Assembly: GCA_943788115.1 (NCBI GenBank)
Contig: CALSPA010000016.1
Location: forward strand, 6,001 to 70,000
Origin: an uncultured Flavobacteriales bacterium
GTDB taxonomy: Bacteria > Bacteroidota > Bacteroidia > Flavobacteriales_D > Parvicellaceae
DNA: 64,000 bases
Direction: 5' to 3'
Of this stretch, positions 41,045 through 60,650 are shown piece after piece. Position 1 is the stretch's first letter, and each line of letters begins with the position of its first letter. The notes beneath the pieces were generated by a model. That model saw only the letters and a list, made by a program, of their open reading frames with translations. It was not told the origin of the DNA and did no database searches. The position numbers and the translations under genes were made by a program.

Positions 41045-41045
41045 A

Positions 41046-41633: not shown

Positions 41634-41732
41634 AAAATTTCATAATCTGAACACCTTAAAATTTGTAACCTAAAAGTAAAAATTAGTTATAAAGGTAAAT
41701 TCAAGATTATTCAAACAAACAACACCATATCA

Positions 41733-44026: not shown

Positions 44027-44086
44027 GTATTGAAACTCTATACTTACTTTTTAAGTATTAAAATAAACTTTAAATAAACATCAACT

Positions 44087-44587: not shown

Positions 44588-44624
44588 TTTTTTTTTACCC
44601 CCTTATTTATTTTAAATTTGATTG

Positions 44625-46615: not shown

Positions 46616-46647
46616 CGTTTTATTATATTGTAAATTAATATTAAACA

Positions 46648-47148
46648 ATGAAAATTTTAATATCAACTATACTTTTAATCACACTCATTTCTTGCGTTAA
46701 CTATGCAGAAGAAAATAAATACCTAATAATTGATTTTGAAAATGTTAATCCACATGATAGTACCAAAATCAAAAAATCAAAAAAAGAGTGGAGAGAAATT
46801 TTAACTGCTCAAGCTTACAATGTACTAATCGAAAAAGGAACTGAAAGAGCTTTTACAGGCAAATATTGGAACAATAATGATAAAGGAATTTATTACTGTA
46901 AAGGTTGTCAATTGGCACTATTTAATAGTGAAACAAAATTTAAATCTGGTACAGGCTGGCCCAGCTTCTACGACAGGGTTAAAACCAATGTGAAACTAGT
47001 GAATGACAATTCTTTTGGAATGATAAGGTCAGAAGTAATATGTAAAAGATGTGATGGTCACCTTGGTCATGTATTTGATGATGGACCAAACCCAACTGGA
47101 TTAAGGTATTGTATTAATTCTGCAGCATTAGAATTTGTATCTGAATGA
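46648..47148 (+). CDS. msrB: peptide-methionine (R)-S-oxide reductase, lipoprotein form
   Basis: GTGWPSF and RCDGHLGHVFDDGP SelR motifs, with an N-terminal lipobox LISC. Confidence 0.9.
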   Translation: MKILISTILLITLISCVNYAEENKYLIIDFENVNPHDSTKIKKSKKEWREILTAQAYNVLIEKGTERAFTGKYWNNNDKGIYYCKGCQLALFNSETKFKSGTGWPSFYDRVKTNVKLVNDNSFGMIRSEVICKRCDGHLGHVFDDGPNPTGLRYCINSAALEFVSE

Positions 47149-47777
47149 TTTTAAAAGAATTTATAACTACATTATATACCAAATTGCAAGAGCCATTACC
47201 TGGTAAAAGTGCGCATTTAAAATTAGCTCCTTACAGAAAATCAACTTTTGATTTAGATCTTGAAAAGTTTAATCCAAAGCTAGCAAGTACCCTATTATTG
47301 TTCTATCAAGATAATTTAAAAATAAAATTTGCATTAATTCAGCGACCAGATTATAGCGGCACTCATGGGGGACAAATTTCTTTTCCTGGTGGAAAAAATG
47401 AAGAAGGTGAAACACTAAAAGAGACTGCACTTAGAGAAACTTTTGAAGAAATTGGAATACCCAAAGAAAAAATACAAGTGATTGGAGAGCTTAGTCAAGT
47501 TTACATTCCACCAAGTAATTTCCTTATATCTCCCTTTATAGCTTTTATGGATGAAAATCCAAGTTTTATTCCAGAATTAAAGGAAGTGAAGCAAATCTTA
47601 GAAATTGATCTAGATGAATTATTAAGAGAGGATGTAATTCAGGAAAAAGAGATGGTTGTAGGTAAAAATACTGGAAATGCAATGAAAATAAAGGTTCCTT
47701 ATATGGACCTACACCACCATACTGTTTGGGGTGCAACGGGTGTAATACTTTCCGAATTTAGAGATTTAATTATTTAG
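47145..47777 (+). CDS. NUDIX hydrolase (CoA pyrophosphatase-like)
   Basis: Nudix box GGKNEEGETLKETALRETFEEIGI. ATGA overlap with msrB. Confidence 0.8.
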   Translation: MILKEFITTLYTKLQEPLPGKSAHLKLAPYRKSTFDLDLEKFNPKLASTLLLFYQDNLKIKFALIQRPDYSGTHGGQISFPGGKNEEGETLKETALRETFEEIGIPKEKIQVIGELSQVYIPPSNFLISPFIAFMDENPSFIPELKEVKQILEIDLDELLREDVIQEKEMVVGKNTGNAMKIKVPYMDLHHHTVWGATGVILSEFRDLII

Positions 47778-48433
47778 TTTATAACCAACTCCTTTAATAG
47801 TTTTAATATAATGATCACCTATTTTTTCTCTAAGCTTTCTTATGTGAACGTCTATTGTTCGATCCCCAACTACAATATCATCACCCCAAACTTTTGCGAG
47901 TATTGTTTCTCTGGTAAAAACATTTCCGGGTTTAGAAAATAGCAAAGCTAAAAGCTCAAACTCTTTTTTTGGAAGAGTCATCTCTTTACCACTACAAATA
48001 GCAATATATTTTTCTCTATTAATCTCTAGAGACATTTTGTCGCTTTTAACAACTTGATTTAAACTAGATCGTCTTAACAAGGCTTTTACTCTACTAACTA
48101 AAACACGTGGCTTAATAGGTTTAGTAATGTAATCATCTGCTCCAGAATCTAACCCAGCAACTTGAGAATAGTCTTCTCCTCTTGCAGACAAAAAAGCAAT
48201 AATAGAACTCTTCAGCACCTTATCTTTTCTTAGCTCGATACATGTTTCAATACCATCCATTTCGGGCATCATAACATCTAATAAAATTAAATCTGGAATG
48301 AATGACTTGGCCTCTGAAAGACATTCTAACCCATTGCTTGCTGTTTTTACTAAATAACCTTCTTTTTCTAAATGGTATTTAATTATTTCAATAATATCAG
48401 GTTCATCATCTACTAGAAGAATCTTAGGCATAG
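47506..48433. repeat. direct repeat copy A1 (~0.93 kb)
   Basis: Aligns without indels to 52892..53819 at a constant offset of 5386. I see 4 substitutions in the NUDIX-derived part, none over ~570 nt of the regulator gene, then rising mismatch over the last ~85 nt. Confidence 0.9.
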
Positions 48434-48461
48434 TTTGATTTTCTTTATTTTTTGCTTCCAT
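47766..48461 (-). CDS. OmpR/PhoB-family response regulator, copy 1
   Basis: Receiver domain (LLVDDEPDI, DLILLDVMMPEMDG, GADDYITKP) and winged-helix output (DRTIDVHIRKLREKI, IKTIKGVGYKL). No histidine kinase is adjacent. Confidence 0.9.
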   Translation of the reverse strand: MEAKNKENQTMPKILLVDDEPDIIEIIKYHLEKEGYLVKTASNGLECLSEAKSFIPDLILLDVMMPEMDGIETCIELRKDKVLKSSIIAFLSARGEDYSQVAGLDSGADDYITKPIKPRVLVSRVKALLRRSSLNQVVKSDKMSLEINREKYIAICSGKEMTLPKKEFELLALLFSKPGNVFTRETILAKVWGDDIVVGDRTIDVHIRKLREKIGDHYIKTIKGVGYKLNN

Positions 48462-48530
48462 TAAAGGTATTTTTTAGAAAATAAAACAATATTAATTAAA
48501 CATTAAATTATTATTAAATAAAAAACCCTC

Positions 48531-48569
48531 TTAACACAGGGTTAACATATAAATAAAGAACAATTAACT
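48531..48569 (+). promoter_or_regulatory. phased TTAAC(A/T) hexamers (candidate response-regulator site)
   Basis: TTAACA at 48531, TTAACA at 48542 and TTAACT at 48564 give spacings of 11 and 22 nt. They lie in the divergent region between regulator copy 1 and the lipoprotein gene. Confidence 0.3.
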
Positions 48570-48652
48570 ATTAATAAAACAATCATAGCACCATGATTAT
48601 ATTTCTTTGTATCAAAAATTAATTACAACAAAAAAACAATAATAATTTAAAT

Positions 48653-49942
48653 ATGAAAATTTCAAAAATTCTATCTATTCTCTTCCTAACATCTATAACT
48701 TTTTTCAGTTGTAAAAAGGAAGGCTGCACAGACCCAACAGCTTTAAATTACAATGCCGAAGCCCAAAAAGATAATGGCAACTGTGAATACAATTCAGACG
48801 AATATACTCTTTCTGGTCAAATATCTTCTGACTTAACGTTAACTTCCGATAATATTTGGACACTTTCGGGAAGAGTTGTAGTTCCTTCCGGAGTTTCTTT
48901 AACTATTGAGGCTGGAACTATTATTAAGGCAATGCCTGGAACTGGGGCATCCGCTTCTACTTTAATCATTGCTAGAGGAGGTAAACTTTATGCAAATGGT
49001 ACCGCAGCTGCTCCAATTATCATGACATCTAATGCTGATGACATAACAATTGGTCAAACTCAAGGATCTTCATTAAACGTTAACGTTAGAGGACTATGGG
49101 GAGGGCTACTTATTTTAGGAAATGCACCATGCTCTTTTTCTGGAGACGTTACAGAGCTTCAAATTGAAGGTATTCCTGCTTCAGATGCCAATGGATTATA
49201 TGGTGGTAATGATGCTACAGATAATTCTGGAACAATTACTTTTGTTTCTATCCGTCATGGAGGTGCCGAAATTGGTGAAGGTAATGAAATCAACGGTTTA
49301 ACTCTAGGAGGAGTTGGTACAGGAACAACAATCAATAATATAGAAGTTGTTGCTAATGTAGACGATGGAATTGAATTCTTTGGTGGAACTGTGAACGCAT
49401 CTAACTTAATAGTTTGGGGCCAAGGAGATGATGGTTTGGACATTGACCAAGGATATTCTGGAACAATTGACAACTCAATGGTAATACTAAATGAAGCATC
49501 TGATCACGCTTTTGAAATTGATGGGCCTGAAGGTTCTGCAACTGGTTCATTCACTATTACAAACACTACTATAAAAGGTGCCGCTGATGGGTGTAACGCT
49601 GCTGGTGTTGATGGTGAAATGGCTGATTTCAGAAAAGGTGCTACAGGTATAACATCAAATATTTTAGCCATTGATTTCTCTTCAGGAAAAGACGTAGAAT
49701 TAGATTCACAGGAAGATGCCTTTTCATATTCAAATGGCAATCTAATATTTAATAATTGGGAGATAAAATGGATTGATGGATGCATAGGAGAAAATCTAAA
49801 TGAAATTTTTGATGACAAATCTGATTTAAGCACATTTGAAAATGATGCTTTTAATTTCGCTAATATTATAAACACTCCTTCTGTTGGGGCAGACAAATCA
49901 GTATTTTATTGGACATATACAAGTTTAAACAACAATCTTTAA
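48653..49942 (+). CDS. lipoprotein with Gly/Asp-rich beta-helix-like repeats
   Basis: Lipobox FFSC, followed by repeated GG..N/DDG motifs (VDDGIEFFGGTVNASN, GDDGLDIDQGYSG). It lies immediately upstream of a TonB-dependent receptor. Confidence 0.55.
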   Translation: MKISKILSILFLTSITFFSCKKEGCTDPTALNYNAEAQKDNGNCEYNSDEYTLSGQISSDLTLTSDNIWTLSGRVVVPSGVSLTIEAGTIIKAMPGTGASASTLIIARGGKLYANGTAAAPIIMTSNADDITIGQTQGSSLNVNVRGLWGGLLILGNAPCSFSGDVTELQIEGIPASDANGLYGGNDATDNSGTITFVSIRHGGAEIGEGNEINGLTLGGVGTGTTINNIEVVANVDDGIEFFGGTVNASNLIVWGQGDDGLDIDQGYSGTIDNSMVILNEASDHAFEIDGPEGSATGSFTITNTTIKGAADGCNAAGVDGEMADFRKGATGITSNILAIDFSSGKDVELDSQEDAFSYSNGNLIFNNWEIKWIDGCIGENLNEIFDDKSDLSTFENDAFNFANIINTPSVGADKSVFYWTYTSLNNNL

Positions 49943-49961
49943 ATTATAAATTTTAATTCGT

Positions 49962-49996
49962 AAAGCTGTCTTTTTAAAAATAGACAGCTTTTTTGT
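49962..49996 (+). terminator. rho-independent terminator-like hairpin
   Basis: Stem AAAGCTGTCT / AGACAGCTTT with a 10-nt loop and a following T-run. It ends 5 nt before the receptor start codon. Confidence 0.6.
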
Positions 49997-50000
49997 TTGT

Positions 50001-52874
50001 ATGGAAAAAAATATTCTAAACCTAATTACTATTTTATTAAGCATTAATATATATAGTCAATCATCAATTGTAGGATCTGTTATTGATGAAGAATTTAACG
50101 ACCCCATGCCCTATGCCAATGTCATAATAAAAGGCACCAGTAATGGGGTAACTACAGATTTTGATGGAAAATTTTCTTTAAATGTACAACCAGGCACCTA
50201 TACCCTGGTTTTTTCATTTGTAGGATACAACACCAAAGAAATAACAGAGATTAAAGTTAAAGAAAATGAAGTTAAAGAAGTTAATGTTAACCTATCTACA
50301 ACTTCAGTTGCAATGGATGAAGTTGTCATTTCTGTATCGGCTAAAAAGAATACCGAACAAGCTCTTCTTAAAATTCAAAAAAAATCCGCCAACTTAATGG
50401 ATGGTCTTTCCAGTGAAAATTTTAAAAAAGTTGGAGTTGGTGATTTGGCCAGTGCAGTTAAAAGAGCACCAGGAGTTTCTCTCCAAGGAGGAAAATATGT
50501 TTATGTTAGAGGTTTAGGAGACAGGTACACCAAATCCATTCTAAATGGATTAGATATTCCTGGTTTAGATCCAGACAGAAATACCATTCAAATGGATTTA
50601 TTTCCAACTAATATAATTGACAATGTACTTATTTTTAAATCTGCCACTGCAGATAAACCTGCAGACTTCACAGGAGGTATTGTAGATATTATTACTAAAG
50701 ACTTTCCAACTAAAAAAACAACCAGTATTTCCTTAAGTGCAGGGTACAATCCATCAATGCATTTTAATAGTGATTACCTTTCTTATGAGGGTGGTAAGAC
50801 AGACTTTTTAGGATTTGATGACGGTTCTAGAGCATTACCTTTAAATTATAATCTAAATGCCTATGTTGGTAACACATTGCAAGATTTAAATACTACAAAT
50901 AACTTAAACGCCAATCTTCCAAATGTTACACCTTCAGATTACGAAGCCATAAATACTTTATCTTCTAGTTTTAATCCCAACATGTCTGCATTAAGAACCA
51001 CAAGCTTAATAAATGGAGGGTTTGGATTTTCTTCTGGTAATCAATATGATATAGGCGAAAATAAATTGGGTGTACTTGGCTCAATTTCTTATAAAAACTC
51101 AACTGAATTTTATAAAGATGCACAAAACAACTTTTTTAACAGAAGCACCAACACTGCCGTTTATGAGCTAGACACCAATAGAGCTCAAAAAGGTGATCTT
51201 GGAATAAACAATGTAATAATTAGTGGTCTTCTTGGTGTGTCTTACAAAACCGAAAAATCAAAATATAAAATTAATCTTCTTCATATTCAAAATGGAGAAA
51301 GCAAAGCTGGTAACTTTAGACAACAAACTAGATTTTCTGATTTTATTGATTTAAACAAAGATAATCTGGAATACACAGAACGTTCCATTTCTAATATATT
51401 ATTTGCTGGAACACATAAAAACAAAGACAATAGCTTAACAACGGAATGGAAATTCGCTCCTACCCTTTCTAGAATTCACGATAAAGACATAAGAACCTCT
51501 ACTTTCCAAGATGAAGATGGAATCTACAGTTTTCAAGAAAACACGGAGCCTAAAAGAATATGGAGATACCTCAATGAGATTAATCTTGTTTCTAGGATAG
51601 ATTTCACTAAAACCTATAAATTATTTGATGAAAAATCTAAATTTAAATTTGGGGCATTAGGGTCATACAAATCAAGAGATTTTTCTATTGCTCAGTTTTC
51701 TGTTAGTTCCACATATACTTCAGTAAATGATTGGAGCAACTACAATGGTGTTGCCGACAACATATTCTCTTCAACGAATTTAGTTTCTGCTAATTCATCA
51801 AATGGAACATTCATAAACCCCAACACAACCATCATTGAAGGCTCAAGAAAATTTGAATCTCAAAAAACCAATTTCGCTGGATATGTCTCTAATGAGGTGA
51901 AACTTTTTGGAGTACTAAGAACAGTAATGGGACTTAGAACCGAACTGTTTGACATGTACTACACTGGAAAAAATACTGCTGGAACAGAAACATATAATAG
52001 TGAAAATGTAATTAGAAAAATAGACTTATTTCCTTCTCTAAATTTAATTTATCAGCTATCTGAAGATGCGAATTTAAGAACATCTTATTCAAGAACAACA
52101 GCAAGACCTTCTTTCAAAGAGGCTTCAATAGCAGAAATTTATGATCCACTATCTAACATGACCTTCATTGGAAATATTGATATTAAACCTTCTTACATTC
52201 AAAATTTAGATCTTAGATATGAATTTTTTGGTGAAAGTGCTCAAATGATTGCACTAAGTGGATTCTATAAGTTTTTTAAAGATCCTATTGAAATGACCTA
52301 TTTTGAATCCGCACCTACTAACTTAACTCCAAAAAATTTAGGTGAAGCATCAGTATATGGGATAGAGCTAGAAGTACGGAAAAACTTTGGATTTATTTCT
52401 AAAAAATTAGAAAACATCGAGCTTAATGTAAATGGTTCACTTATAGAATCTGCATTGAAATTTAGTGAAATTGAATACAACCTTAGATTTGCTGGTTTAA
52501 GAGAAGGAGAAACTTTAGGAAACACCAGGCCGCTACAAGGTCAATCTCCATTTCTAGTTAATATTGGATTAAACTATGGTAATTCGCTAAAAGGGCTTCA
52601 ATTTGGATTATTTTACAATGTTCAAGGGAAAACACTTCAAGTTGTTGGTACAGGATTCTATCCCGATGTGTATACAATGCCTTTTCATAGCTTGAATTTC
52701 AATCTGAATAAAACACTTGGAAAGGAAAGAAGATCAACCATAAACTTTAGAATAAATAATTTACTTGATGACGAAAAAGAAAGTCGTTTTCAATCTTATT
52801 TAGCATCTGATCAATTCTTTACTTTAAGGAAACCAGGAAGATTAATTTCAATAGGTTATAATTACAAGTTTTAA
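50001..52874 (+). CDS. TonB-dependent receptor with CarboxypepD_reg N-terminal domain
   Basis: GSVIDEEFNDPMPYANVIIKGTSNGVTTDFDGKFSL, plug motifs, a long beta-barrel and a terminal ...GYNYKF. Confidence 0.9.
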   Translation: MEKNILNLITILLSINIYSQSSIVGSVIDEEFNDPMPYANVIIKGTSNGVTTDFDGKFSLNVQPGTYTLVFSFVGYNTKEITEIKVKENEVKEVNVNLSTTSVAMDEVVISVSAKKNTEQALLKIQKKSANLMDGLSSENFKKVGVGDLASAVKRAPGVSLQGGKYVYVRGLGDRYTKSILNGLDIPGLDPDRNTIQMDLFPTNIIDNVLIFKSATADKPADFTGGIVDIITKDFPTKKTTSISLSAGYNPSMHFNSDYLSYEGGKTDFLGFDDGSRALPLNYNLNAYVGNTLQDLNTTNNLNANLPNVTPSDYEAINTLSSSFNPNMSALRTTSLINGGFGFSSGNQYDIGENKLGVLGSISYKNSTEFYKDAQNNFFNRSTNTAVYELDTNRAQKGDLGINNVIISGLLGVSYKTEKSKYKINLLHIQNGESKAGNFRQQTRFSDFIDLNKDNLEYTERSISNILFAGTHKNKDNSLTTEWKFAPTLSRIHDKDIRTSTFQDEDGIYSFQENTEPKRIWRYLNEINLVSRIDFTKTYKLFDEKSKFKFGALGSYKSRDFSIAQFSVSSTYTSVNDWSNYNGVADNIFSSTNLVSANSSNGTFINPNTTIIEGSRKFESQKTNFAGYVSNEVKLFGVLRTVMGLRTELFDMYYTGKNTAGTETYNSENVIRKIDLFPSLNLIYQLSEDANLRTSYSRTTARPSFKEASIAEIYDPLSNMTFIGNIDIKPSYIQNLDLRYEFFGESAQMIALSGFYKFFKDPIEMTYFESAPTNLTPKNLGEASVYGIELEVRKNFGFISKKLENIELNVNGSLIESALKFSEIEYNLRFAGLREGETLGNTRPLQGQSPFLVNIGLNYGNSLKGLQFGLFYNVQGKTLQVVGTGFYPDVYTMPFHSLNFNLNKTLGKERRSTINFRINNLLDDEKESRFQSYLASDQFFTLRKPGRLISIGYNYKF

Positions 52875-52891
52875 ACTTTTATTGTTTTTTG

Positions 52892-53163
52892 TTCCACCAA
52901 GTAATTTCCTTATATCTCCCTTTATAGCTTTTATGGATGAAAATCCAAGTTTTACTCCAGAATTAAAGGAAGTGAAGCAAATCTTAGAAATTGATCTAGA
53001 TGAATTATTAAGAGAGGATGTAATTCAGGAAAAAGAGATGGTTGTAGGTAAAAATACTGGAAATGCAATGAAAATAAAGGTTCCCTATATGGATCTACAC
53101 CACCATACAGTTTGGGGTGCAACGGGTGTAATACTTTCCGAATTTAGAGATTTAATTATTTAG
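52892..53163 (+). pseudogene. 3' fragment of a NUDIX hydrolase gene (duplicate of residues ~121-210 of 47145..47777)
   Basis: PPSNFLISPFIAFMDENPSFTPELKEV...SEFRDLII matches the full-length copy, with one amino-acid difference noted (I->T). It has no Nudix box and no plausible start. Confidence 0.85.
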
Positions 53164-53819
53164 TTTATAACCAACTCCTTTAATAGTTTTAATATAATGA
53201 TCACCTATTTTTTCTCTAAGCTTTCTTATGTGAACGTCTATTGTTCGATCCCCAACTACAATATCATCACCCCAAACTTTTGCGAGTATTGTTTCTCTGG
53301 TAAAAACATTTCCGGGTTTAGAAAATAGCAAAGCTAAAAGCTCAAACTCTTTTTTTGGAAGAGTCATCTCTTTACCACTACAAATAGCAATATATTTTTC
53401 TCTATTAATCTCTAGAGACATTTTGTCGCTTTTAACAACTTGATTTAAACTAGATCGTCTTAACAAGGCTTTTACTCTACTAACTAAAACACGTGGCTTA
53501 ATAGGTTTAGTAATGTAATCATCTGCTCCAGAATCTAACCCAGCAACTTGAGAATAGTCTTCTCCTCTTGCAGACAAAAAAGCAATAATAGAACTCTTCA
53601 GCACCTTATCTTTTCTTAGCTCGATACATGTTTCAATACCATCCATTTCGGGCATCATAACATCTAATAAAATTAAATCTGGAATGAATGACTTGGCCTC
53701 TGAAAGACATTCTAACCCATTGCTTGCTGTTTTAACTAAATAACCTTCTTTTTCTAAATGGTATTTAATTATTTCAATAATATCAGGCTCATCATCTACC
53801 AATAGAATTTTAGGAATAT
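52892..53819. repeat. direct repeat copy A2 (~0.93 kb)
   Basis: See copy A1. Same orientation, beginning 18 nt after the TonB receptor stop. Confidence 0.9.
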
Positions 53820-53844
53820 ATTTTTCTTGTTGTTGTTTACTCAT
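53152..53844 (-). CDS. OmpR/PhoB-family response regulator, copy 2
   Basis: Amino-acid sequence is identical to copy 1 from PKILLVDDEP to the C-terminus. Only the first ~11 residues differ (MSKQQQEKYI vs MEAKNKENQTM). The start is 4 nt after the stop of the Fur-family gene. Confidence 0.9.
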   Translation of the reverse strand: MSKQQQEKYIPKILLVDDEPDIIEIIKYHLEKEGYLVKTASNGLECLSEAKSFIPDLILLDVMMPEMDGIETCIELRKDKVLKSSIIAFLSARGEDYSQVAGLDSGADDYITKPIKPRVLVSRVKALLRRSSLNQVVKSDKMSLEINREKYIAICSGKEMTLPKKEFELLALLFSKPGNVFTRETILAKVWGDDIVVGDRTIDVHIRKLREKIGDHYIKTIKGVGYKLNN

Positions 53845-53848
53845 CTAA

Positions 53849-54289
53849 TTAACTAACACTAGAATTTGAAATAGTTTTACAACAGCCATCACATACTCCC
53901 TCAATGTTAATAGAAACTTTATGAATTTCGTGGTTAGGCAATGAAATTTGAGATGAATTGTTTACTTCTTTACAAGAAATAATATTGCACTTTAAACATT
54001 TAAAATGGATGTGTTCATGATGATGCTGATGTTCTTCACATGTTACCCCACAAATAGCGTAATATATTTCGTTGTTTTCTTGAAAAGCCTTATGAATAAT
54101 CCCTTTTTCTTTTAATATTTCTAAAGTTCTATATAAGGTAACCCTATCAATTGGATTCAATTGATTTTGAATTGTAGAATGACTCATAGCAGAGCCATAC
54201 TTATCCATTTCACTTAATAAATTAAGTCTAGTAGGTGTAACTTTTAGCTTTCTTTTTTGAAGTAATTCTCTAATTTGAGTAGTATTCAT
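53849..54289 (-). CDS. Fur-family metalloregulator (Zur/Fur-like)
   Basis: LKVTPTRLNLL, VTLYRTLEILKEKGII, CEEHQHHHEHIHFKCLKCN and C-terminal CDGCC metal-site motifs. Confidence 0.8.
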   Translation of the reverse strand: MNTTQIRELLQKRKLKVTPTRLNLLSEMDKYGSAMSHSTIQNQLNPIDRVTLYRTLEILKEKGIIHKAFQENNEIYYAICGVTCEEHQHHHEHIHFKCLKCNIISCKEVNNSSQISLPNHEIHKVSINIEGVCDGCCKTISNSSVS

Positions 54290-54338
54290 ATAAACAAAGA
54301 AATTAAAATTTAAGAAAAAGTCAAGCTAAATTTTAAAG

Positions 54339-54379
54339 TAAAAAAAAGTCACCTCAACAATTAAAGCTAAGGTGACTTT
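54339..54379 (-). terminator. rho-independent terminator after the 80-aa gene
   Basis: The minus strand reads AAAGTCACCT, a 15-nt loop, AGGTGACTTT, then a run of T. Confidence 0.65.
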
Positions 54380-54396
54380 ATTAATCATTGAAATAT

Positions 54397-54639
54397 TTAA
54401 TGATCTTCACCACAGTGAACAGTACGTACTGTTCCAGTTGAATCTGATGGTATCACGTAACCGTTAGCTTCAATTGCTTCAAGTTCATCTCCACAATATT
54501 CTCCAAGTTCTACTTCACCACCATTATAATCATAATGACATTCATGACATTTATTACAAGAAATAAATCCAAAAAGTGAAACTGCTGCAAATAAAATTCC
54601 TAATTTTTTCATTGTATTTATTTTTTTATTTAGGTTCAT
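54397..54639 (-). CDS. small Cys/His-rich lipoprotein
   Basis: The likely start is the internal MKKLGILFAAVSLFGFISC (54612) with a lipobox. The mature ~50 aa contains CHECH and ends VHCGEDH. It lies directly downstream of a His-rich TonB receptor. Confidence 0.55.
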   Translation of the reverse strand: MNLNKKINTMKKLGILFAAVSLFGFISCNKCHECHYDYNGGEVELGEYCGDELEAIEANGYVIPSDSTGTVRTVHCGEDH

Positions 54640-54719
54640 ATTAATTAAGGTTTAATTTGAAGAGAATCATTGAACCCTTTTGAGATTCTTTTCAAACAAT
54701 ATTTTTTTAAAGAATAAGA

Positions 54720-56948
54720 TTAACTTTTTGAAATCATAAAGTTTAATTTTATGTAAAAGTTTCTATCAGGATTAGCTATTTCATAGGGCTTAAGTCTAGA
54801 TAGATGGTCAATGTATTTTGCATTTAGTAAATTATTAACACCAAATGAAAAGTCAATTTTATGTTTAGTTAATAAAGAACCGTTGCAACCTAAGTTTATC
54901 AATTGATATGCATCACTTGTTTGTTCGTAAATAGCAACTTTATTTTGCTCAAAGAAGTATACATACTGAGCAGATAAGCTGTTAATCTTTAGATTTTTAT
55001 CACTATTAAAGTCCACTTTTACAATGTTGTTTATCCTGTTTTGAGGAGTAAACGGAAGAGAATTATTAGAAATATCTTGTGCAGATAATAGAGAAAAATT
55101 ACTTTCTAGATGTAGCCAATGTGCTATGTGTGGATGATAATGTATGGCAATGTCACCTCCTGAGAGAAGGGCATCAGTTTGTTTAATATTAAATAATGGT
55201 AGACCTGATGTTGAATCTGTATTCCCTGTTGGATCTTTAAATACGAAATTATTTATTTGGTTAATGAAAGGATTAATGACAATTTCTAGGTGGTCAAAGT
55301 GGCTACCAAAATAAAAATCAATTTGGTTGGCTCTTTCAGAATCTAAATTAACATCTCCAATTAAATACTGCATTGTTGCATGGTGAACACCATTTGCAAG
55401 TAATTCAGAAACATGAGGGGGTCTAAAGCCAGAAGAAGCATTTAACCTGGTTGTAAAATTTTTGGAGGACCTAGATATACCAGCAGAATAGTTAACTCCA
55501 CTAAAAGTTTTTGCAAATGGATCAACTGATTCTAGCGTAGTAACACTTCGTTGGTCGTATCGAGCTCCTGCCTGAATGTTCCAAATATTAAAAGTTCCTT
55601 TAAGTAAAGAAAATGCACCTAAATCAACAAAGTCTGCATTGGGAACTAAAACTTCTTCAGCATAACGCCCATTGGTGTTGCTTTGAAACATACCTTGAGA
55701 TCCTGAAACAAGCTCAAAATGTTTGTTGAATTGATGTTTCCATCGAAGATTGTACGAATAGTTTTGTAGGGTCATATCAATACCTGCAACAGAAACTTTT
55801 TCTCCATATTCTTTCAACTCATTGGAAGTGAAACCAAGCTGAGCGACCAACTCATCATTTTTAAAGTAAATTTTATTTTCCCACTGAGCTAAATGATTGG
55901 TGATTTTTTGAGCAGGAATATTGTAAGATCTAGATTGATTATCGTTAAGAAAGCTTGAAACATCCGGATTTGCATCATGAGTATGTCCAGGAAGGCCATT
56001 TTGAAAATATAATAGTTGGTATCTAAAATTGGTAATCCAGTTTTTTTTATTGTAACCAATTGCAGTTTTTACAGAGCCACCACTATTTTTTGAATTGGTA
56101 ACAAATTGATTGCCTGGAATACCGTAGTCAGCTCTATTAAAATAGCCTCCGTAAACAGCAAATCGCAGTTTGTTTTTTGAAGATTTATAGGAAATATTAT
56201 TTACAGTAGCCAAGGAGTTAGTTTCAAACTTCGAATTCATTTTAAACTCTGATTCGTTGGCATTAGCATAGGGTTCGTCTCCAACATAAATCACACCCCC
56301 AAGAGCATCAGCACCATATATTAGGGAGCTAGGGCCTTTAATCACTTCTACCCTATCAATCCCTAAGTTAAATAACGCAAAGCCATGATCTGCACCCCAT
56401 TGTTGATTTTCTATACGTAATCCGTTTAATGAAGTAAGTACACGCATTCCTGAAAGTCCTCTAATAACGGGTTTTGCTATTCCATTTCCGGTAGACTGAT
56501 TGTAAATTCCAGGCATGTTGGATAACGCATCAACTAGGTTAGTATTTTCAATCTTGTTCAAATCAGCAATCTTTCTAGAGTCTATTGGAAAAGTACTGTA
56601 ACGTTGCAGTTTGGAATCTGAAGTAGATATTATAACTTCATCTAAATGAATGTGCGCAAGCTCTAATTCAACAATGATATCAGTGTTAGGGTTATCTACT
56701 TCTATCATTTTACTTTCGTATTCAGAAGCAGATATTTGCAATGTCATTTGATTATTTATAACATTTTCCAGCTCCCAGTTACCGTTACTATCAGCAATTG
56801 CTCCGTTTTGTGTTTCTATACAATATATTTTAGCAAAGGGTAGTCCTTCACAAGAATTTAAATCTAGAATAGAACCTTTAATATTTTGGGCATTTCCGTA
56901 ATGAAAAACAAATAAAGTAAAAAAGATAAATAATAAATTTTTGGTCAT
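54720..56948 (-). CDS. TonB-dependent receptor with CarboxypepD_reg domain and His-rich loops
   Basis: GSILDLNSCEGLPFAKIY, plug motif VEVIKGPSSLIYGADALGGVI and His-rich segments (LPGHTHD, IAIHYHPHIAHWLHLE). Confidence 0.9.
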   Translation of the reverse strand: MTKNLLFIFFTLFVFHYGNAQNIKGSILDLNSCEGLPFAKIYCIETQNGAIADSNGNWELENVINNQMTLQISASEYESKMIEVDNPNTDIIVELELAHIHLDEVIISTSDSKLQRYSTFPIDSRKIADLNKIENTNLVDALSNMPGIYNQSTGNGIAKPVIRGLSGMRVLTSLNGLRIENQQWGADHGFALFNLGIDRVEVIKGPSSLIYGADALGGVIYVGDEPYANANESEFKMNSKFETNSLATVNNISYKSSKNKLRFAVYGGYFNRADYGIPGNQFVTNSKNSGGSVKTAIGYNKKNWITNFRYQLLYFQNGLPGHTHDANPDVSSFLNDNQSRSYNIPAQKITNHLAQWENKIYFKNDELVAQLGFTSNELKEYGEKVSVAGIDMTLQNYSYNLRWKHQFNKHFELVSGSQGMFQSNTNGRYAEEVLVPNADFVDLGAFSLLKGTFNIWNIQAGARYDQRSVTTLESVDPFAKTFSGVNYSAGISRSSKNFTTRLNASSGFRPPHVSELLANGVHHATMQYLIGDVNLDSERANQIDFYFGSHFDHLEIVINPFINQINNFVFKDPTGNTDSTSGLPLFNIKQTDALLSGGDIAIHYHPHIAHWLHLESNFSLLSAQDISNNSLPFTPQNRINNIVKVDFNSDKNLKINSLSAQYVYFFEQNKVAIYEQTSDAYQLINLGCNGSLLTKHKIDFSFGVNNLLNAKYIDHLSRLKPYEIANPDRNFYIKLNFMISKS

Positions 56949-56980
56949 TATAATTGCTTTTAAATCAATAACGCTGCAAA

Positions 56981-57076: not shown

Positions 57077-58225
57077 TTAAAAATTAAACTCTGTTTGTAA
57101 TCTAAATAAAACTACATTATCCTTAGTTTCTTCTTGAGATAAACTAACGTCTCCTTGGACCTTTAGGTTATGACCAACTACGTATCTAGAAAAACCTAGA
57201 GTATACTGGTTTATATTGTTATTAAGGGTGATTGCTTCTGGCGTTACTTGAGTAAATCTACCAGCTACCTCCCAGTTATTCTTCATTAAATAACCCATTT
57301 GAAGATTAATAGCCGAACCTGTATAGTAACTTTCATTTACATCAATAATTTCACCATTTAAGTTATACAATGCATCAACAACAGCAGAACCAGTTGTTGA
57401 TCTTCTAGTAACATACTCTCCAAAGAATGAAAAGCCTTTAATTTTGAAATGCGCATCTACAAAAACAGTTTCTAAATCTCTCAAATCACCTTGTATATAA
57501 TCTCCTTTTTGCCCTCTACTACGCATGGCATTTTGATTGTAATCGTATGTCGCACTTAACATTAACTTGGGCGATTTTTCACGTTTCAAATCCGAAGCAA
57601 AATAATCTCCCTTTTTAGTGAATTTCCCAAAGGGTAATAGCTCTATTCTACCTGTATATCCATGTCCAGAAGATGAAGCAGTTTGATTTAAACCCTCTCC
57701 CTGAGAAATGGCAAAAATTTCTCTAACTAAAAAATTTTCTCCAATTGTAAAATGATGTCTTAATTGAGCGCCAGCATCACGATCTAAAGTAAATCTAGAA
57801 TTTAATAAAGAACGGTCAACCAATTGTAATTTTTGAGAAGAAAACACACGTTCAATGTTTCCAGGTAATTTGGTTTGTCCAAACCATACTGTCCAATTAC
57901 CAGCAAAATTCCATTTAATAACAGCATCTAAAACAAAACCGTTATGTACATCATATTCAAATTTATATTTCAATCTAGGACTAAAAGCAAAACCACTTCC
58001 TTTAATCCTTGCTCTTCTTACAAATGCTTTATCTGAGAATGTAGTATCAGAAAAATCATATGTTCCTTCATACCTTGTTTGAAACCTAAAAGCTACTTTA
58101 GTCGCCCAAGAAGAATCTTTAGACATTACATTTATTAATCCTTTTCCAAAACGATTATTTGTTATATCCTGTGAAAACACATTTGCTATAAAGCAGATAA
58201 AAAATAGAGTTATTAGCTTTTTCAT
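57077..58225 (-). CDS. phosphate-selective porin O/P family protein
   Basis: Signal peptide, FVRRARIKGSG, LDAVIKWNF, WFGQTKLPGNIERV and a terminal aromatic ...EFNF, typical of the Porin_O_P pattern. Confidence 0.7.
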   Translation of the reverse strand: MKKLITLFFICFIANVFSQDITNNRFGKGLINVMSKDSSWATKVAFRFQTRYEGTYDFSDTTFSDKAFVRRARIKGSGFAFSPRLKYKFEYDVHNGFVLDAVIKWNFAGNWTVWFGQTKLPGNIERVFSSQKLQLVDRSLLNSRFTLDRDAGAQLRHHFTIGENFLVREIFAISQGEGLNQTASSSGHGYTGRIELLPFGKFTKKGDYFASDLKREKSPKLMLSATYDYNQNAMRSRGQKGDYIQGDLRDLETVFVDAHFKIKGFSFFGEYVTRRSTTGSAVVDALYNLNGEIIDVNESYYTGSAINLQMGYLMKNNWEVAGRFTQVTPEAITLNNNINQYTLGFSRYVVGHNLKVQGDVSLSQEETKDNVVLFRLQTEFNF

Positions 58226-58496: not shown

Positions 58497-60650
58497 ATGC
58501 GTAATTTAATTCTAACCATTACCCTGTTTTTAAGTATCAACACAATTTTTGCTCAAGATTCAATTTTCACAGATACTACAGTAAATGATATTGTAAGTTC
58601 TTCGAGTTCAATTGTCTTAGATGAATCTACTTTTAATAACCTATCTGCAAGCTCTAAAAGTGAAGGGTTTAAGCTTACATGGAGTGTAGATTACAATTCA
58701 TACAATGAAATTTCTGACAAAAAATTCATTGTTAAATACAACACTAAAATTGGTTCTAAAAGAAACAAGAAGGGCTTCGAAGGAAGTGATTGGAAATATT
58801 CAGAAGTTTTCAATACTGACAAAACAAGTTTTGAAATAAAAGATCTTCTTGGTGGAGAAAAATATGAAGCCTATTTGGGAATCATCAATAATGGTGATGC
58901 AAACAACATTGAAAATGCAGATATTATATGGTCCAAAAAAGTTAAAATCAAAACTGAAAGAGGTTGGGGATTAATGAAATTTTTAATACTCATTGGTTCT
59001 TTAGGATTGTTTATTTTCGGAATGAAAATTATGAGTGATGGACTTCAACGAACAGCTGGAGAGAAACTTAGAAAAATGCTTGGCTCAATAACTTCAAATA
59101 GATTTAAAGGTGTTTTTACTGGTTTTATGTCTACATCTATTGTGCAATCATCATCTGTAACAACTGTAATGACTGTAAGTCTAGTTAATGCCGGTCTAAT
59201 TAACCTTAGGCAGTCTGCTGGAGTAATGATGGGAGCTAATATAGGAACTACAATTACAGCATGGTTAGTTTTATTATTAGGTTTCAAAGTAAGTATTTCA
59301 TCTTATGCATTGGTTCTTATTGCTTTAGGAGCACCATTATTGTTTATGACTTTTAGGAGATCTAAAGACTTAGCTAATTCTATTATTGGTTTTGCCATTC
59401 TTTTTATTGGTTTACAATTCCTTAAAGATGCAGTTCCAAACTTAGATAAGGATTCAGCTTTAGTGCAATTTTTTGTAGACTACAAAGACATTCCATTTTT
59501 AAGCAACCTAATGTTTGTAGCATTAGGAGCACTTGTAACAATAGTTATTCAATCATCAAGTGCAGCAATGGCTTTAACTCTTACGATGGTTTCCAAAGGA
59601 ATTATTCCATTTGAAGTTGCCTGCGCAATGGTTCTTGGAGAAAATATAGGTACTACTATAACTGCCGAAATAGCTTCAATGATAGGAAATGTTCATGCTA
59701 AAAGATCTGCAAGAATTCACTCACTATTTAATATTGTTGGAGTCACATGGATGCTTATAGTTATTCCTTTTTTCCTTGACGGAATTGGATTCTTAGTGGG
59801 CGAGTCTCATGGAATTGCTTTTGACCCAAATAATACAGGGATGGCAAACGAAGGAATAGCACTATTCCATACCTTATTCAATGCTGCAAATGTTCTATTA
59901 CTAATAGGTTTTGTTCCATCTCTAGTTAGAATAGCTGAAAGAACAGTTAAATCTAAAGGAGATGCAGATGAAGAGTTTAAGCTAGACTACATTAGTGCTG
60001 GAGGAATTGCATTACCAGAAGTAGCAATTTTAGAAGCTAAAAAAGAAGTAGCGAAATTTGGAGAGGTAACTACAAGAATGAATGGTTTTGTTAAAACATT
60101 AATTAATGATCAAGATAAAAAGACTAGAAATAAAATGTTTAATAAGATTAAAAAATATGAGGAAATTACTGATAGAGTTGAAGTTGAAGTAGCTAACTAC
60201 CTTGACAAAGTTTCAACACAAGAAATTAGTCCAGAAGCCTCATCACAAATTAGAAGCATGCTTAGCATTACCAATGATTTAGAAAGAATTGGAGATATCT
60301 ACTATCAAATGTCTAAGACAATTGAAAGAAAAGACGACAATAAAATATATTTCCTTCCTGAACAAAGAGATAATCTTAATTCTATATTAGATAAGGTTGA
60401 AAAAGCATTTACTGTAATGAATACCAATCTAAATGCAGAATATGGGCATATTATTATTGATGATGCTAAAAAAGTTGAACTTGAAATTAATCGTAAAAGA
60501 AACGATCTAAGAAAGTCCTACTTAGAGCAAGCTGAAAAAGGTGAATTCAAATTTCAACCTGGAATAATGTACAACGATTTATTTTCTTCTTGTGAAAAAA
60601 TTGGTGATCACATTATTAATGTTTCTGAAGCTGTATCCGGAGAAATTTAA
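58497..60650 (+). CDS. Na/Pi cotransporter (NptA-type) with PhoU-like C-terminus and a ~160-aa N-terminal extension
   Basis: FIFGMKIMSDGLQRTAGEKLRKML, VQSSSVTTVMTV and IQSSSAAMALTL repeats, with a helical PhoU-like tail. A canonical-looking start (MKFLILIGSLG) lies in frame at 58974. Confidence 0.85.
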   Translation: MRNLILTITLFLSINTIFAQDSIFTDTTVNDIVSSSSSIVLDESTFNNLSASSKSEGFKLTWSVDYNSYNEISDKKFIVKYNTKIGSKRNKKGFEGSDWKYSEVFNTDKTSFEIKDLLGGEKYEAYLGIINNGDANNIENADIIWSKKVKIKTERGWGLMKFLILIGSLGLFIFGMKIMSDGLQRTAGEKLRKMLGSITSNRFKGVFTGFMSTSIVQSSSVTTVMTVSLVNAGLINLRQSAGVMMGANIGTTITAWLVLLLGFKVSISSYALVLIALGAPLLFMTFRRSKDLANSIIGFAILFIGLQFLKDAVPNLDKDSALVQFFVDYKDIPFLSNLMFVALGALVTIVIQSSSAAMALTLTMVSKGIIPFEVACAMVLGENIGTTITAEIASMIGNVHAKRSARIHSLFNIVGVTWMLIVIPFFLDGIGFLVGESHGIAFDPNNTGMANEGIALFHTLFNAANVLLLIGFVPSLVRIAERTVKSKGDADEEFKLDYISAGGIALPEVAILEAKKEVAKFGEVTTRMNGFVKTLINDQDKKTRNKMFNKIKKYEEITDRVEVEVANYLDKVSTQEISPEASSQIRSMLSITNDLERIGDIYYQMSKTIERKDDNKIYFLPEQRDNLNSILDKVEKAFTVMNTNLNAEYGHIIIDDAKKVELEINRKRNDLRKSYLEQAEKGEFKFQPGIMYNDLFSSCEKIGDHIINVSEAVSGEI

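What the first reader, a model, noticed from the sequence alone, without database searches (positions are those of the whole stretch)
47506..53819. Near-identical 0.93-kb direct repeats (NUDIX 3' end plus response regulator) bracket a 4.5-kb lipoprotein/TonB-receptor cassette
Segments 47506..48433 and 52892..53819 align with a constant offset of 5386 nt and no indels.
- Each contains the last ~270 nt of a NUDIX gene and nearly all of an OmpR-type response regulator on the opposite strand.
- Only copy 1 is attached to a complete NUDIX gene. Copy 2 is a dead 3' fragment that begins 18 nt after the TonB-receptor stop.
- The mismatch distribution is uneven. I count 4 substitutions in the NUDIX part, none across ~570 nt of the regulator gene, 1 at 48348, then about 6 in the last ~35 nt.
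- The regulator proteins therefore differ only in their first ~11 residues.

This A-B-A architecture has no transposase or integrase. It is what a Campbell-type integration or duplicative recombination leaves behind. The central tract of perfect identity suggests ongoing gene conversion.

Functionally, the same regulator protein sits under two different promoters. One copy is divergent from the lipoprotein/receptor operon. The other is 4 nt downstream of a Fur-family gene. The repeats should also allow excision or amplification of the receptor cassette by homologous recombination.
Basis: seen in the sequence. Interest (0 to 1): 0.65.

Follow-up and report, generated by a model that had tools for sequence, protein, structure and literature searches.

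The report
Duplicated regulator repeats flank receptor cassette
An uncultured marine flavobacterium carries two near-identical 0.93-kb copies of a phosphate-type response regulator (plus a dead piece of its neighbour gene) on either side of an outer-membrane receptor cassette; this is an ordinary recombination-made duplication, and wild relatives lacking the cassette and one copy also exist.

Summary
Window 47506-48433 and 52892-53819 align at a constant offset of 5386 nt with no indels and 12 mismatches in 928.

The structure is not an assembly artefact. It recurs in at least 13 independent marine metagenome assemblies made with several assemblers.

Two conspecific contigs lack the 4.46-kb cassette and one repeat copy. 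So do several related lineages.

Relatives show alternative layouts of this one locus:
- RR next to a porin gene.
- RR-lipoprotein-TBDR1.
- RR behind a Fur/Zur-like gene.

The window merges the last two. Only one junction is new (52891|52892), and there are no recombinase genes.

My best reading is a single homologous crossover plus one illegitimate join. That means a Campbell-type or homology-facilitated illegitimate insertion of the lipoprotein/TBDR1 cassette into a Fur-RR-NUDIX ancestor.

Afterwards there was patchy gene conversion, because copy 2 carries copy-1 alleles in nested tracts. Deletion between the repeats is possible.

The regulator is PhoB-like. Copy 2 sits 4 nt behind the Fur-family gene, whose 9 extra codons read into the regulator's old leader.

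This is a well-documented but ordinary structural polymorphism, made by known mechanisms.

The parts
46648..47148 (+). msrB (SelR domain) gene, part of the conserved left flank
   Evidence: Pfam SelR, E=1.6e-50. It is syntenic in L108, L110 and L112.
47145..47777 (+). Complete NUDIX hydrolase gene (210 aa). Its last 272 nt lie inside repeat copy 1.
   Evidence: Pfam NUDIX, E=6.8e-14. The best NCBIfam hit is CoA pyrophosphatase, below its cut-off.
47506..48433 (.). Repeat copy A1 (928 nt): NUDIX 3' end plus most of the RR gene
   Evidence: Invariant in the population contigs except for one SNP at 48084 in L097 and a 1-nt insertion in L083/L095.
47766..48461 (-). RR1, a PhoB-like OmpR-family response regulator (231 aa) with its own upstream region, divergent from the lipoprotein gene
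   Evidence: Pfam Response_reg plus Trans_reg_C. NCBIfam PhoB models score 203-206 bits, below their cut-offs of 270-296.
48434..52891 (.). Unique segment B (4458 nt): RR1 5' end, intergenic region, lipoprotein gene, TBDR1 gene and a 17-nt tail
   Evidence: 100% identical in all contigs that carry it. Absent from L085 and L090.
48653..49942 (+). Lipoprotein with a beta-helix domain (429 aa)
   Evidence: The precomputed Pfam family is PF28492 Beta_helix_4. The local Pfam and NCBIfam scans found nothing. At least 7,990 homologues reached E<=1e-30 among the 8,000 candidates scored.
50001..52874 (+). TonB-dependent receptor TBDR1 (957 aa)
   Evidence: Pfam CarbopepD_reg_2, Plug and TonB_dep_Rec_b-barrel. 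93% aa identity to the L108 protein.
52875..52892 (.). The only novel junction. The 17-nt TBDR1 3' tail is joined to NUDIX codon 121 (the equivalent of 47506). It is an illegitimate join or a circle-closure point.
   Evidence: The junction is crossed by contigs from independent runs and assemblers.
52892..53819 (.). Repeat copy A2 (928 nt)
   Evidence: It is polymorphic in the population, with copy-1 alleles in nested patches.
52882..53163 (+). Dead NUDIX 3' fragment (90 NUDIX codons within a 93-codon ORF). It carries I142T plus 3 synonymous differences from the live gene.
   Evidence: No Pfam hit.
53152..53844 (-). RR2 (230 aa), identical to RR1 from residue 11 onward. It starts 4 nt after the Fur-family stop codon.
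   Evidence: Its 5' end is orthologous to that of the single RR gene in L112 (78% versus 56% for RR1 over the first 27 nt).
53729..54007 (.). A 279-nt tract (RR2 5' end plus Fur 3' end) that is 100% identical to a different lineage (L105), which is otherwise 60-80% identical. This is an interspecies recombination tract.
   Evidence: The same chimeric Fur protein is found in 3 samples.
53849..54289 (-). Fur-family (Zur-like) regulator, 146 aa, with a 9-aa C-terminal extension
   Evidence: Pfam FUR. The best NCBIfam hit is Zur, far below its cut-off. Most homologues are 137 aa. The extension and stop codon align with the RR leader of L112.
54345..54379 (-). Terminator-like hairpin (14 pairs plus a T-run) between the small Cys-rich gene and the Fur-family gene
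54397..54639 (-). Small Cys/His-rich putative lipoprotein (80 aa)
   Evidence: It is conserved between TBDR2 and Fur in relatives.
54720..56948 (-). TonB-dependent receptor TBDR2 (742 aa), weakly ZnuD-like
57077..58225 (-). Porin O/P-like gene. In L112 and L113 it lies directly upstream of the single RR gene.
   Evidence: Precomputed Pfam Porin_O_P, marked weak.
58497..60650 (+). Na/Pi cotransporter with a PhoU-like domain, the conserved right flank
   Evidence: Syntenic in L108, L110 and L112.

Best explanation
The locus merges two alternative layouts of one chromosomal site.

**Ancestral layout (inferred).** The ancestor of this population had msrB-NUDIX-RR directly behind a Fur/Zur-like gene. 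The full order was porin-TBDR2-small protein-Fur-RR, which I call Type III.

**The insertion (inferred).** A 5,386-bp unit was added by one homologous crossover plus one illegitimate join.
- The unit came from a layout in which the same regulator sits divergently next to a lipoprotein/TBDR1 pair (Type II).
- It runs from the middle of NUDIX to 17 nt past TBDR1.
- The event was either a circularised fragment integrating by a single (Campbell-type) crossover within NUDIX-RR, or a linear fragment integrating by homology-facilitated illegitimate recombination.

**What that explains.**
- NUDIX-3'/RR is present twice.
- There is a single novel junction at 52891|52892.
- The copy-2 NUDIX piece is dead.
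- No recombinase genes are present.

**Since then.**
- The two copies exchange sequence by gene conversion, mostly from copy 1 to copy 2.
- Homologous recombination between them can delete the cassette again.

**Functional outcome (inferred from sequence only).** The same PhoB-like regulator protein can be made from two places. One is its own upstream region, shared with the lipoprotein/TBDR1 pair. The other is the second cistron behind the Zur-like gene.
For: **The structure is real and recurrent.**
- The layout L-A1-B-A2-R is found in at least 13 samples.
- Logan unitigs cross both junctions (X1 record 5, 48372-52921).

**Empty-site forms exist.**
- Conspecific contigs L085 (62 kb) and L090 show Fur-RR(230 aa)-NUDIX(210 aa)-msrB.
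- The sister lineage L105 has Fur-4 nt-RR-NUDIX, with at least 170 aa of NUDIX present.
- The contig carrying P0243 has porin-TBDR2-small-Fur-RR-NUDIX.

**The Fur-linked copy is in the native context.**
- L112 and L113 share both flanks with the window. They have a single RR directly downstream of the porin gene.
- The first 27 nt of RR2 are 78% identical to that RR, against 56% for RR1.
- The roughly 20 nt before the RR2 ATG, which now encode the end of Fur, align with the RR leader of L112.
- Fur homologues outside this group are 137 aa and have no RR downstream.

**Segment B comes from a Type II layout.**
- msrB-NUDIX-RR-lipoprotein-TBDR1-Na/Pi cotransporter is the synteny in L108, L109 and L110.
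- RR-TBDR-lipoprotein adjacency is widespread.
- TBDR1 is about 92% nt identical to L108, against about 70% in the flanks.

**The right end of the repeat looks like a crossover inside homologous coding sequence.** All differences from 48348 to 48423 are synonymous. There are 7 differences in the last 32 nt.

**Gene conversion.**
- A2 haplotypes at the four NUDIX sites are CCTA, CCCA, CTCT and TTCT, against TTCT in every A1 copy. All four gamete types occur.
- L097 has the 48084 C allele in both copies.

**Precedent.** Single crossover of circularised fragments experimentally produced 109-950 bp duplications of the homologous segment. [quoted passage not shown]
Against: - **No donor found.** No conspecific donor layout (RR1-lipoprotein-TBDR1 followed directly by the Na/Pi cotransporter) was found among 19 contigs carrying the exact TBDR1. 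A foreign donor at about 72% identity would require later homogenisation of copy 1.
- **The left flank does not separate the outgroups.** L108 and L112 are both about 70-72% identical there. 'Which layout is ancestral' therefore rests mainly on the right flank, the RR 5' end and the Fur read-through.
- **The cassette-less contigs could be secondary.** Their allele pattern (T at 47569, then copy-2 alleles) also fits a crossover within 47570-47698. In the short-read scaffold L090 it could be an assembler path switch.
- **Some copy-2 haplotypes may be unreliable.** Those with copy-1 alleles in L087 and L088 come from short-read SPAdes contigs, where near-identical repeats can be mixed.
- **The 624-nt tract of perfect identity is not proof of conversion.** It could reflect recency plus purifying selection on RR.
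Confidence: 0.55

Rival explanations
1. Reverse direction. The recipient genome had the Type II layout (msrB-NUDIX-RR1-lipoprotein-TBDR1-Na/Pi cotransporter). It received a fragment from a conspecific Type III strain carrying NUDIX'-RR2-Fur-small-TBDR2-porin-Na/Pi. Integration was by homologous recombination in the Na/Pi cotransporter side and an illegitimate join 17 nt after TBDR1 (classical HFIR). The 'duplication' is then just the overlap between donor and recipient.
For: - This is a topologically simple one-step HFIR (definition in PMC3240628).
- Type II synteny is conserved in L108 and L110, down to 66% lipoprotein identity.
- Type III conspecifics exist as potential donors (L085, L090).
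- The three synonymous NUDIX differences look like allelic differences between two functional genes.
Against: - The right flank of the window (717-aa Na/Pi cotransporter, DUF6428, ChrA) matches the Type I and Type III relatives at 84.5% nt. It does not match the Type II relatives, which have MORN and a shorter cotransporter.
- No conspecific Type II contig was found.
Confidence: 0.2
2. In situ duplication or ectopic gene conversion within one genome. The genome already carried RR1-lipoprotein-TBDR1 next to a diverged paralogous RR behind Fur. A copy of NUDIX-3'/RR1 then overwrote that paralogue. One end was anchored in RR 5' homology and the other joined illegitimately after TBDR1.
For: - The right repeat boundary lies inside homologous coding sequence, with only synonymous differences.
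- Copy 1 is the only copy attached to a complete NUDIX gene.
- Conversion from copy 1 to copy 2 is seen in the population.
Against: - No relative shows lipoprotein-TBDR1 next to a diverged Fur-linked RR without the NUDIX fragment.
- Related lineages with Fur-RR have a full NUDIX gene next to it, which this model explains only by repeated secondary deletions.
- The model needs an extra earlier step to bring the two blocks together.
Confidence: 0.15
3. Assembly artefact: a mis-join or duplicated consensus of a single regulator locus.
For: - Near-identical 0.9-kb repeats are hard for short-read assemblers.
- Logan unitigs break exactly at 47506 in one run (X7 record 25).
Against: - The same layout and the same fixed copy-specific differences occur in at least 13 samples.
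- It is seen with different assemblers (contig_*, SPAdes NODE_*, MEGAHIT k141_*, Logan), including contigs up to 501 kb.
- The copy-specific 5' ends are each embedded in unique flanking sequence.
Confidence: 0.02

Closest known systems
Campbell-type (single-crossover) insertion-duplication and homology-facilitated illegitimate recombination (HFIR) (PMC3240628)
   Same: - A homologous segment is present as direct repeats on both sides of the inserted DNA.
- There is one illegitimate junction.
- No site-specific recombinase is involved.
- The repeat (928 bp) falls within the 109-950 bp range of duplications reported experimentally for circularised fragments.
   Different: - Here the event is inferred from natural metagenome populations and was not observed directly.
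- The donor molecule is unknown.
- The inserted DNA is an alternative version of the same chromosomal locus, not plasmid or foreign marker DNA.
Replacement-type flexible genomic islands and cassette swapping between conserved flanking genes in marine bacteria. A related case is sequential displacement of T6SS effector/immunity genes in Vibrio cholerae, which leaves orphan remnants (PMC5361080; title and abstract seen only).
   Same: - Alternative gene cassettes occupy the same site between conserved genes (here RR and the Na/Pi cotransporter) in related strains.
- Exchange is by homologous recombination in the flanks.
- Remnants of displaced genes are left behind.
   Different: - Here two alternatives have been combined in tandem, with duplication of a regulator gene, rather than one replacing the other.
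- I did not read PMC5361080 beyond its abstract. The comparison with flexible islands rests on my general knowledge.
Phosphate-depletion-induced TonB-dependent transporters and hypothetical lipoproteins or beta-helix exoproteins of Flavobacterium (PMC8115612)
   Same: - A PhoB-like regulator lies next to a TBDR and a beta-helix lipoprotein, a porin O/P-like gene and a Na/Pi cotransporter.
- That paper reports TBDTs and hypothetical lipoproteins induced only under Pi depletion. It also reports exoproteins with weak pectate-lyase-like homology.
   Different: - No homology between the window's proteins and those specific Flavobacterium johnsoniae proteins was tested.
- No expression data exist for this organism.
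- TBDR1 is not a SusC/SusD pair.
Concerted evolution of duplicated bacterial genes by gene conversion, for example tuf or rRNA operons (general knowledge)
   Same: - Two copies are kept nearly identical over a central tract.
- The edges are sharply diverged.
- Population variants show patchy transfer of alleles between copies.
   Different: - The copies are only 5.4 kb apart and in direct orientation.
- The duplication may simply be young.
- One copy includes a non-functional gene fragment.

Membership tests
Campbell-type / HFIR insertion-duplication | Direct repeats of a chromosomal segment flank the inserted DNA | tested here: met
   Repeats of 928 nt in the same orientation, offset 5386 nt.
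Campbell-type / HFIR insertion-duplication | Exactly one novel (illegitimate or circle-closure) junction; all other adjacencies are found in uninterrupted relatives | tested here: met
   - L-A1-B adjacency is found in L108, L109 and L110.
- A-R adjacency is found in L085, L090 and L105.
- Only 52891|52892 is new.
Campbell-type / HFIR insertion-duplication | An unoccupied ('empty') site exists in the same or closely related genomes | tested here: met
   L085 and L090 are conspecific at above 99% identity. L105, L112 and L113 are related lineages.
Campbell-type / HFIR insertion-duplication | A donor layout or circular intermediate with near-identical homology is identified | tested here: not met
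   No conspecific RR1-lipoprotein-TBDR1-Na/Pi contig was found among 19 contigs. No circle junction other than the chromosomal one could be distinguished. JGI metagenome scans gave no hits.
Transposon / IS / integrative element | Transposase, integrase or recombinase gene in or next to the unit | tested here: not met
   Pfam annotation of all called genes within about 10 kb shows none.
Transposon / IS / integrative element | Terminal inverted repeats or short target-site duplication | tested here: not met
   No inverted repeats of 40 nt or more in 44000-57000. Shorter ones were not searched. The duplication is 928 nt of coding sequence, not a short target-site duplication.
PhoB (phosphate regulon response regulator, NCBIfam TIGR02154 / NF053854) | Score at or above the curated equivalog cut-off | tested here: not met
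   Scores are 205.8 bits against a cut-off of 296.2, and 203.3 against 270. These are the best hits, and JGI names homologues 'PhoP'. I therefore call it PhoB-like only.
PhoB (phosphate regulon response regulator) | Adjacent cognate histidine kinase PhoR and a Pho-box-controlled regulon | not tested
   No histidine kinase gene lies next to either copy. Pho boxes were not searched.
Zur (zinc uptake repressor) | Score at or above the NCBIfam equivalog cut-off | tested here: not met
   37.1 bits against a cut-off of 167. Pfam FUR membership is met (36.5 bits against 23.1). Zinc specificity is inferred only from the neighbours: a weakly ZnuD-like TBDR2 and a small Cys/His-rich protein.
SusC/SusD-type polysaccharide utilisation pair | SusC-family TBDR with an adjacent SusD-family lipoprotein | tested here: not met
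   TBDR1 hits the SusC model only over its N-terminal 150 aa (75.8 bits against 368). The lipoprotein is Beta_helix_4, not SusD.

The most novel reading that the evidence does not exclude
The duplication may be kept because it wires one PhoB-like regulator into two nutrient circuits. Copy 1 is autoregulated together with a phosphate-scavenging lipoprotein/TBDR pair. Copy 2 is translationally coupled to a Zur-like repressor gene beside a ZnuD-like receptor. Zinc status would then set the dose of the phosphate regulator, giving a hard-wired Zn-P co-limitation switch in an abundant marine flavobacterium. The direct repeats would let the population toggle the extra receptor cassette on and off.
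Probability: 0.1. Interest if true: 0.55.

Novelty: new member of a known kind. Interest (0 to 1): 0.3.

Why it matters
This is a clean natural example of how bacteria stack alternative versions of one locus without any mobile-element machinery. It needs one homologous crossover plus one illegitimate join. The result is a duplicated regulator, a dead gene stub and a cassette that the population can lose again.

Many independent metagenome assemblies carry it, so insertion, conversion tracts and the empty site can all be seen in wild populations rather than in the laboratory.

For marine microbiology it flags the site between a PhoB-like regulator and a Na/Pi cotransporter as a hot spot. Outer-membrane receptor cassettes, phosphate-type and zinc-type, are swapped there between lineages.

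It does not reveal a new mechanism or a new kind of element.

Tried and rejected
- **Plasmid origin.** Megablast of 46600-54700 against PLSDB gave no match.
- **Source genome in GTDB representatives.** The best RR match was 66%, so no close genome was available. Those loci only gave deep synteny.
- **My first working model: the cassette-less form is ancestral and B is the insert.** L108 and L110 overturned it by showing L-A1-B as conserved synteny. L112, the P0243 contig and the RR 5'/leader homologies then partly restored it. The final model treats the locus as a merger of both layouts.
- **A selective-sweep signature in B.** B has zero SNPs, but so does the whole 44000-52900 block and other stretches, so this is not informative.
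- **Flanking SNP haplotypes to date the cassette-less contigs.** The haplotypes are mosaic. L085 nests among A-B-A contigs and only L090 is divergent, so this was inconclusive.
- **Outgroup polarisation of the three synonymous NUDIX differences.** The sites are saturated, so this was inconclusive.
- **Read laying.** Only Logan contigs at 3-7x depth were available. They confirm the junctions but cannot phase across the 928-nt repeat. Two further calls added nothing.
- **JGI metagenome scans.** A scan for a possible variant joint and a scan for the TBDR1 3' end both returned 0 hits.
- **Sigma-70 promoter scan.** It found no more sites than in shuffled sequence, and Bacteroidota promoters differ from that consensus, so I did not use it.
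Full report
**1. The observation**

A base-by-base comparison at offset 5386 shows that window 47506-48433 and 52892-53819 are colinear. There are no indels and 12 mismatches in 928 nt. Similarity drops to background immediately outside both ends.

The mismatches fall as follows:
- 47569, 47699, 47708 and 47723 lie in the NUDIX part.
- None occur from 47724 to 48347 (624 nt).
- One lies at 48348.
- Seven lie in 48402-48433.

This clustering is non-random. Comparing 4 in 218 nt with 0 in 624 nt gives a Fisher p of 0.004.

| Gene | Coordinates | Strand |
|---|---|---|
| msrB | 46648-47148 | + |
| NUDIX, complete | 47145-47777 | + |
| RR1 (OmpR-type response regulator) | 47766-48461 | - |
| Lipoprotein | 48653-49942 | + |
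| TonB-dependent receptor TBDR1 | 50001-52874 | + |
| NUDIX 3' stub (93-codon ORF) | 52882-53163 | + |
| RR2 | 53152-53844 | - |
| Fur-family gene | 53849-54289 | - |

RR1 and RR2 are identical except for residues 1-11 versus 1-10. The Fur-family stop codon lies 4 nt before the RR2 start codon. No transposase or integrase gene is called within about 10 kb on either side.

**2. Is it an assembly artefact?**

No. The organism is an uncultured marine member of the Flavobacteriales. The nearest species representative in GTDB has an RR only 66% identical.

Exact-protein look-ups found the same region in many ENA and Logan metagenome assemblies. BLASTN of the five segments (left flank, A1, B, A2, right flank) against 20 fetched loci shows the complete order L-A1-B-A2-R in 11 samples, and a twelfth contig (L089) ends inside B. 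Contigs reach 501 kb.

Other evidence agrees:
- A MEGAHIT contig from another study (L116) spans the cassette and part of both copies.
- A 4,550-nt Logan unitig (L117, which is X1 record 5) runs from 48372 to 52921 and so crosses both junctions.
- The copy-specific differences at 48348-48433 are the same in all these contigs.

**3. Population variation**

Copy A1 is invariant, apart from one SNP in L097 and a one-base insertion in L083/L095.

Copy A2 is polymorphic. At the four NUDIX-part sites, A1 is always T-T-C-T. A2 haplotypes are:
- C-C-T-A in the window, L081/91, L082/92, L084, L093, L094, L097 and L099.
- C-C-C-A in L086/98.
- C-T-C-T in L088/100 and, on a different background with three extra variants, in L083/95.
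- T-T-C-T in L087/96.
- T-C-C-A in L089, which shares the three extra variants of L083/95.

These form nested tracts of copy-1 alleles inside copy 2. All four allele combinations of 47569 and 47699 occur. That requires recombination or conversion.

In L097 the A2-type allele 48084C is present in both copies. That fits occasional transfer in the other direction.

Two caveats apply. L087 and L088 are short-read SPAdes contigs, where near-identical repeats can be mixed. The long contigs look like long-read assemblies, judging from their names and frequent frameshifts, but that is my inference.

**4. Cassette-less variants**

Two conspecific contigs carry Fur-RR(230 aa)-NUDIX(210 aa, complete)-msrB. 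They have a single repeat copy and no segment B. They are L085 (ERZ10646638, 62 kb) and L090 (ERZ23491068, 8 kb).

Their single copy has the A1 allele at 47569 and A2 alleles at every other diagnostic site. Three readings fit:
- A homologous deletion between the repeats, with the crossover in 47570-47698.
- An ancestral, never-interrupted locus whose functional NUDIX keeps Ile142, in which case the I142T change arose later in the dead stub.
- For the short scaffold L090 only, an assembler path switch.

Flanking SNP haplotypes are mosaic and do not settle this. The zero diversity of B is uninformative, because the whole 44000-52900 block is SNP-free.

**5. Comparative layouts of the locus**

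Four layouts of the same site were found.

| Type | Layout | Where seen |
|---|---|---|
| I | porin -> RR, with convergent NUDIX-msrB. Both flanks match the window: sigma factor, 575-aa protein and FA hydroxylase on the left; 717-aa Na/Pi cotransporter, DUF6428, ChrA, S16 and RimM on the right. | L112, L113 (RR 83%) |
| II | msrB-NUDIX-RR <-> lipoprotein-TBDR1-Na/Pi cotransporter | L108, L109 (lipoprotein 80%) and L110 (66%) |
| III | porin-TBDR2-small protein-Fur-RR-NUDIX | L085 and L090; L105 (at least 170 NUDIX codons present, so not the stub); the P0243 contig |
| IV | Types II and III combined | the window |

RR next to a TBDR and this lipoprotein also occurs in much more distant Flavobacteriia, and even in a Gemmatimonadota MAG. 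More distant Fur homologues are 137 aa. They sit in a TBDR-small protein-Fur unit with no RR downstream.

**6. Which part is native?**

- The right flank of the window is 84.5% identical to Type I relative L112. The left flank is only about 72% identical to both L112 and L108.
- The first 27 nt of RR2 are 78% identical to the L112 RR. For RR1 the figure is 56%.
- The roughly 20 nt before the RR2 ATG (GTGTTAGTTAATTAGATG) align with the RR leader of L112 (TTGTTAGTTAAGAATTTAGATG). The porin terminator hairpin is also conserved.

The Fur gene has therefore been set down directly in front of the old RR leader. It reads 9 codons into that leader before reaching a stop 4 nt from the RR start. This explains the 146-aa Fur, against 137 aa in most homologues.

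RR2 is thus the regulator copy sitting in the native context of the nearest relatives. The RR1 5' end (MEAKNKENQTMPK...) and its upstream region arrive together with the lipoprotein/TBDR1 block.

The right boundary of the repeat lies inside homologous coding sequence. Every difference from 48348 to 48423 is synonymous. That is what a crossover between two diverged alleles of the same gene would leave.

**7. Mechanism**

Compared with the other layouts, Type IV has exactly one new junction. The 17-nt tail after TBDR1 is joined to NUDIX codon 121 (52891|52892).

A 5,386-bp unit (A+B), bounded by that junction, accounts for every feature in either of two ways:
- It was circularised and integrated by one crossover within A.
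- It was carried on a linear fragment that recombined homologously on the left and illegitimately at NUDIX position 47506.

No enzyme beyond the host's recombination machinery is needed. Both routes are documented experimentally. [quoted passage not shown] Single crossovers of circularised fragments gave 109-950 bp duplications of the homologous segment (PMC3240628).

The mirror-image event gives the same product, so I keep it as a rival. In that version the NUDIX'-RR2-Fur...porin block enters a Type II genome by HFIR.

The main weakness of all versions is the missing parent. No conspecific strain with the other single layout was found among 19 contigs. Two JGI metagenome scans found nothing.

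**8. Other recombination footprints**

Two further tracts show how recombinogenic this site is:
- Window 53729-54007 (RR2 5' end plus Fur 3' end) is 100% identical to L105, which is otherwise 60-80% identical. The chimeric Fur protein recurs in three samples, so it is not a chimeric contig.
- Window ~49100-52800 (lipoprotein 3' half plus TBDR1) is about 92% identical to L108, against about 70% in the flanks.

**9. Function (inferred)**

- The regulator's best NCBIfam hits are the two PhoB models, but below their equivalog cut-offs. JGI names its homologues PhoP.
- Its conserved neighbours are a porin O/P-like gene and a Na/Pi cotransporter with a PhoU-like domain.
- In Flavobacterium, several TonB-dependent transporters, hypothetical lipoproteins and beta-helix-like exoproteins are induced specifically by phosphate depletion (PMC8115612). 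The lipoprotein/TBDR1 pair is therefore plausibly a Pho-regulated uptake system. This was not tested.
- The Fur-family protein hits Zur weakly and TBDR2 hits ZnuD weakly. The small protein between them is rich in Cys and His.
- A strong terminator-like hairpin separates the small gene from Fur. Fur-RR2 is therefore probably a two-gene unit.

Whether that matters physiologically is unknown.

**10. Verdict**

The feature is a recombination-made segmental duplication and a structural polymorphism in a wild population. It is well documented here but made by known mechanisms, so I class it as a new member of a known kind, of modest interest.

Noticed in passing
window 53729-54007 (versus L105): A 279-nt tract spanning the RR2 5' end and the Fur 3' end is 100% identical to another lineage, whose flanking sequence is only 60-80% identical. 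This is a recent interspecies recombination tract. It coincides with the right edge of repeat copy 2.
   Followed up: partly
window ~49100-52800 (versus L108): The 3' half of the lipoprotein gene and all of TBDR1 are about 92% nt identical (93% aa) to a relative whose msrB, NUDIX and RR are only about 70% identical. The receptor gene has been exchanged between lineages separately from its flanks.
   Followed up: partly
window 53849-53875 and L112 9980-10000: The Fur-family protein is 146 aa, against 137 aa in most homologues. Its last 9 codons and stop codon align with the 5' leader of the regulator gene in a relative that lacks Fur. The extension is read-through created when the Fur block was placed in front of the regulator.
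   Followed up: yes
window 62451-63140 (repeat at 62916-63113): Ribosomal protein S16 carries a long C-terminal extension with a 27-nt tandem repeat (AEEPAAEVK, 7.3 copies). The called protein length varies from 170 to 242 aa among population contigs. This region is also a SNP hot spot.
   Followed up: partly
window 38000-44000 and 62000-63800 versus 44000-52900: Population SNPs are strongly patchy. They are dense in the polysaccharide-synthesis, sigma-factor and 573-aa protein region and around S16. They are virtually absent across a 9-kb block that includes the left flank, copy 1 and the cassette.
   Followed up: partly
window 54396 and 48470 (run X7): One Logan contig (depth 4.4) was reported as joining 54396 (just below the small Cys-rich gene) to 48470 (upstream of RR1), with 22 unmatched letters (AATCTAAATTTAGATATATATT) between them. 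It could be another layout or a chance AT-rich match. It was not reproduced in two further read-laying runs or in a JGI scan.
   Followed up: partly
window 48524-48543 (minus strand): A terminator-like hairpin with a T-run lies upstream of RR1 on its own strand, inside the RR1-lipoprotein intergenic region. It may be a leftover from the context this 5' end came from.
   Followed up: no
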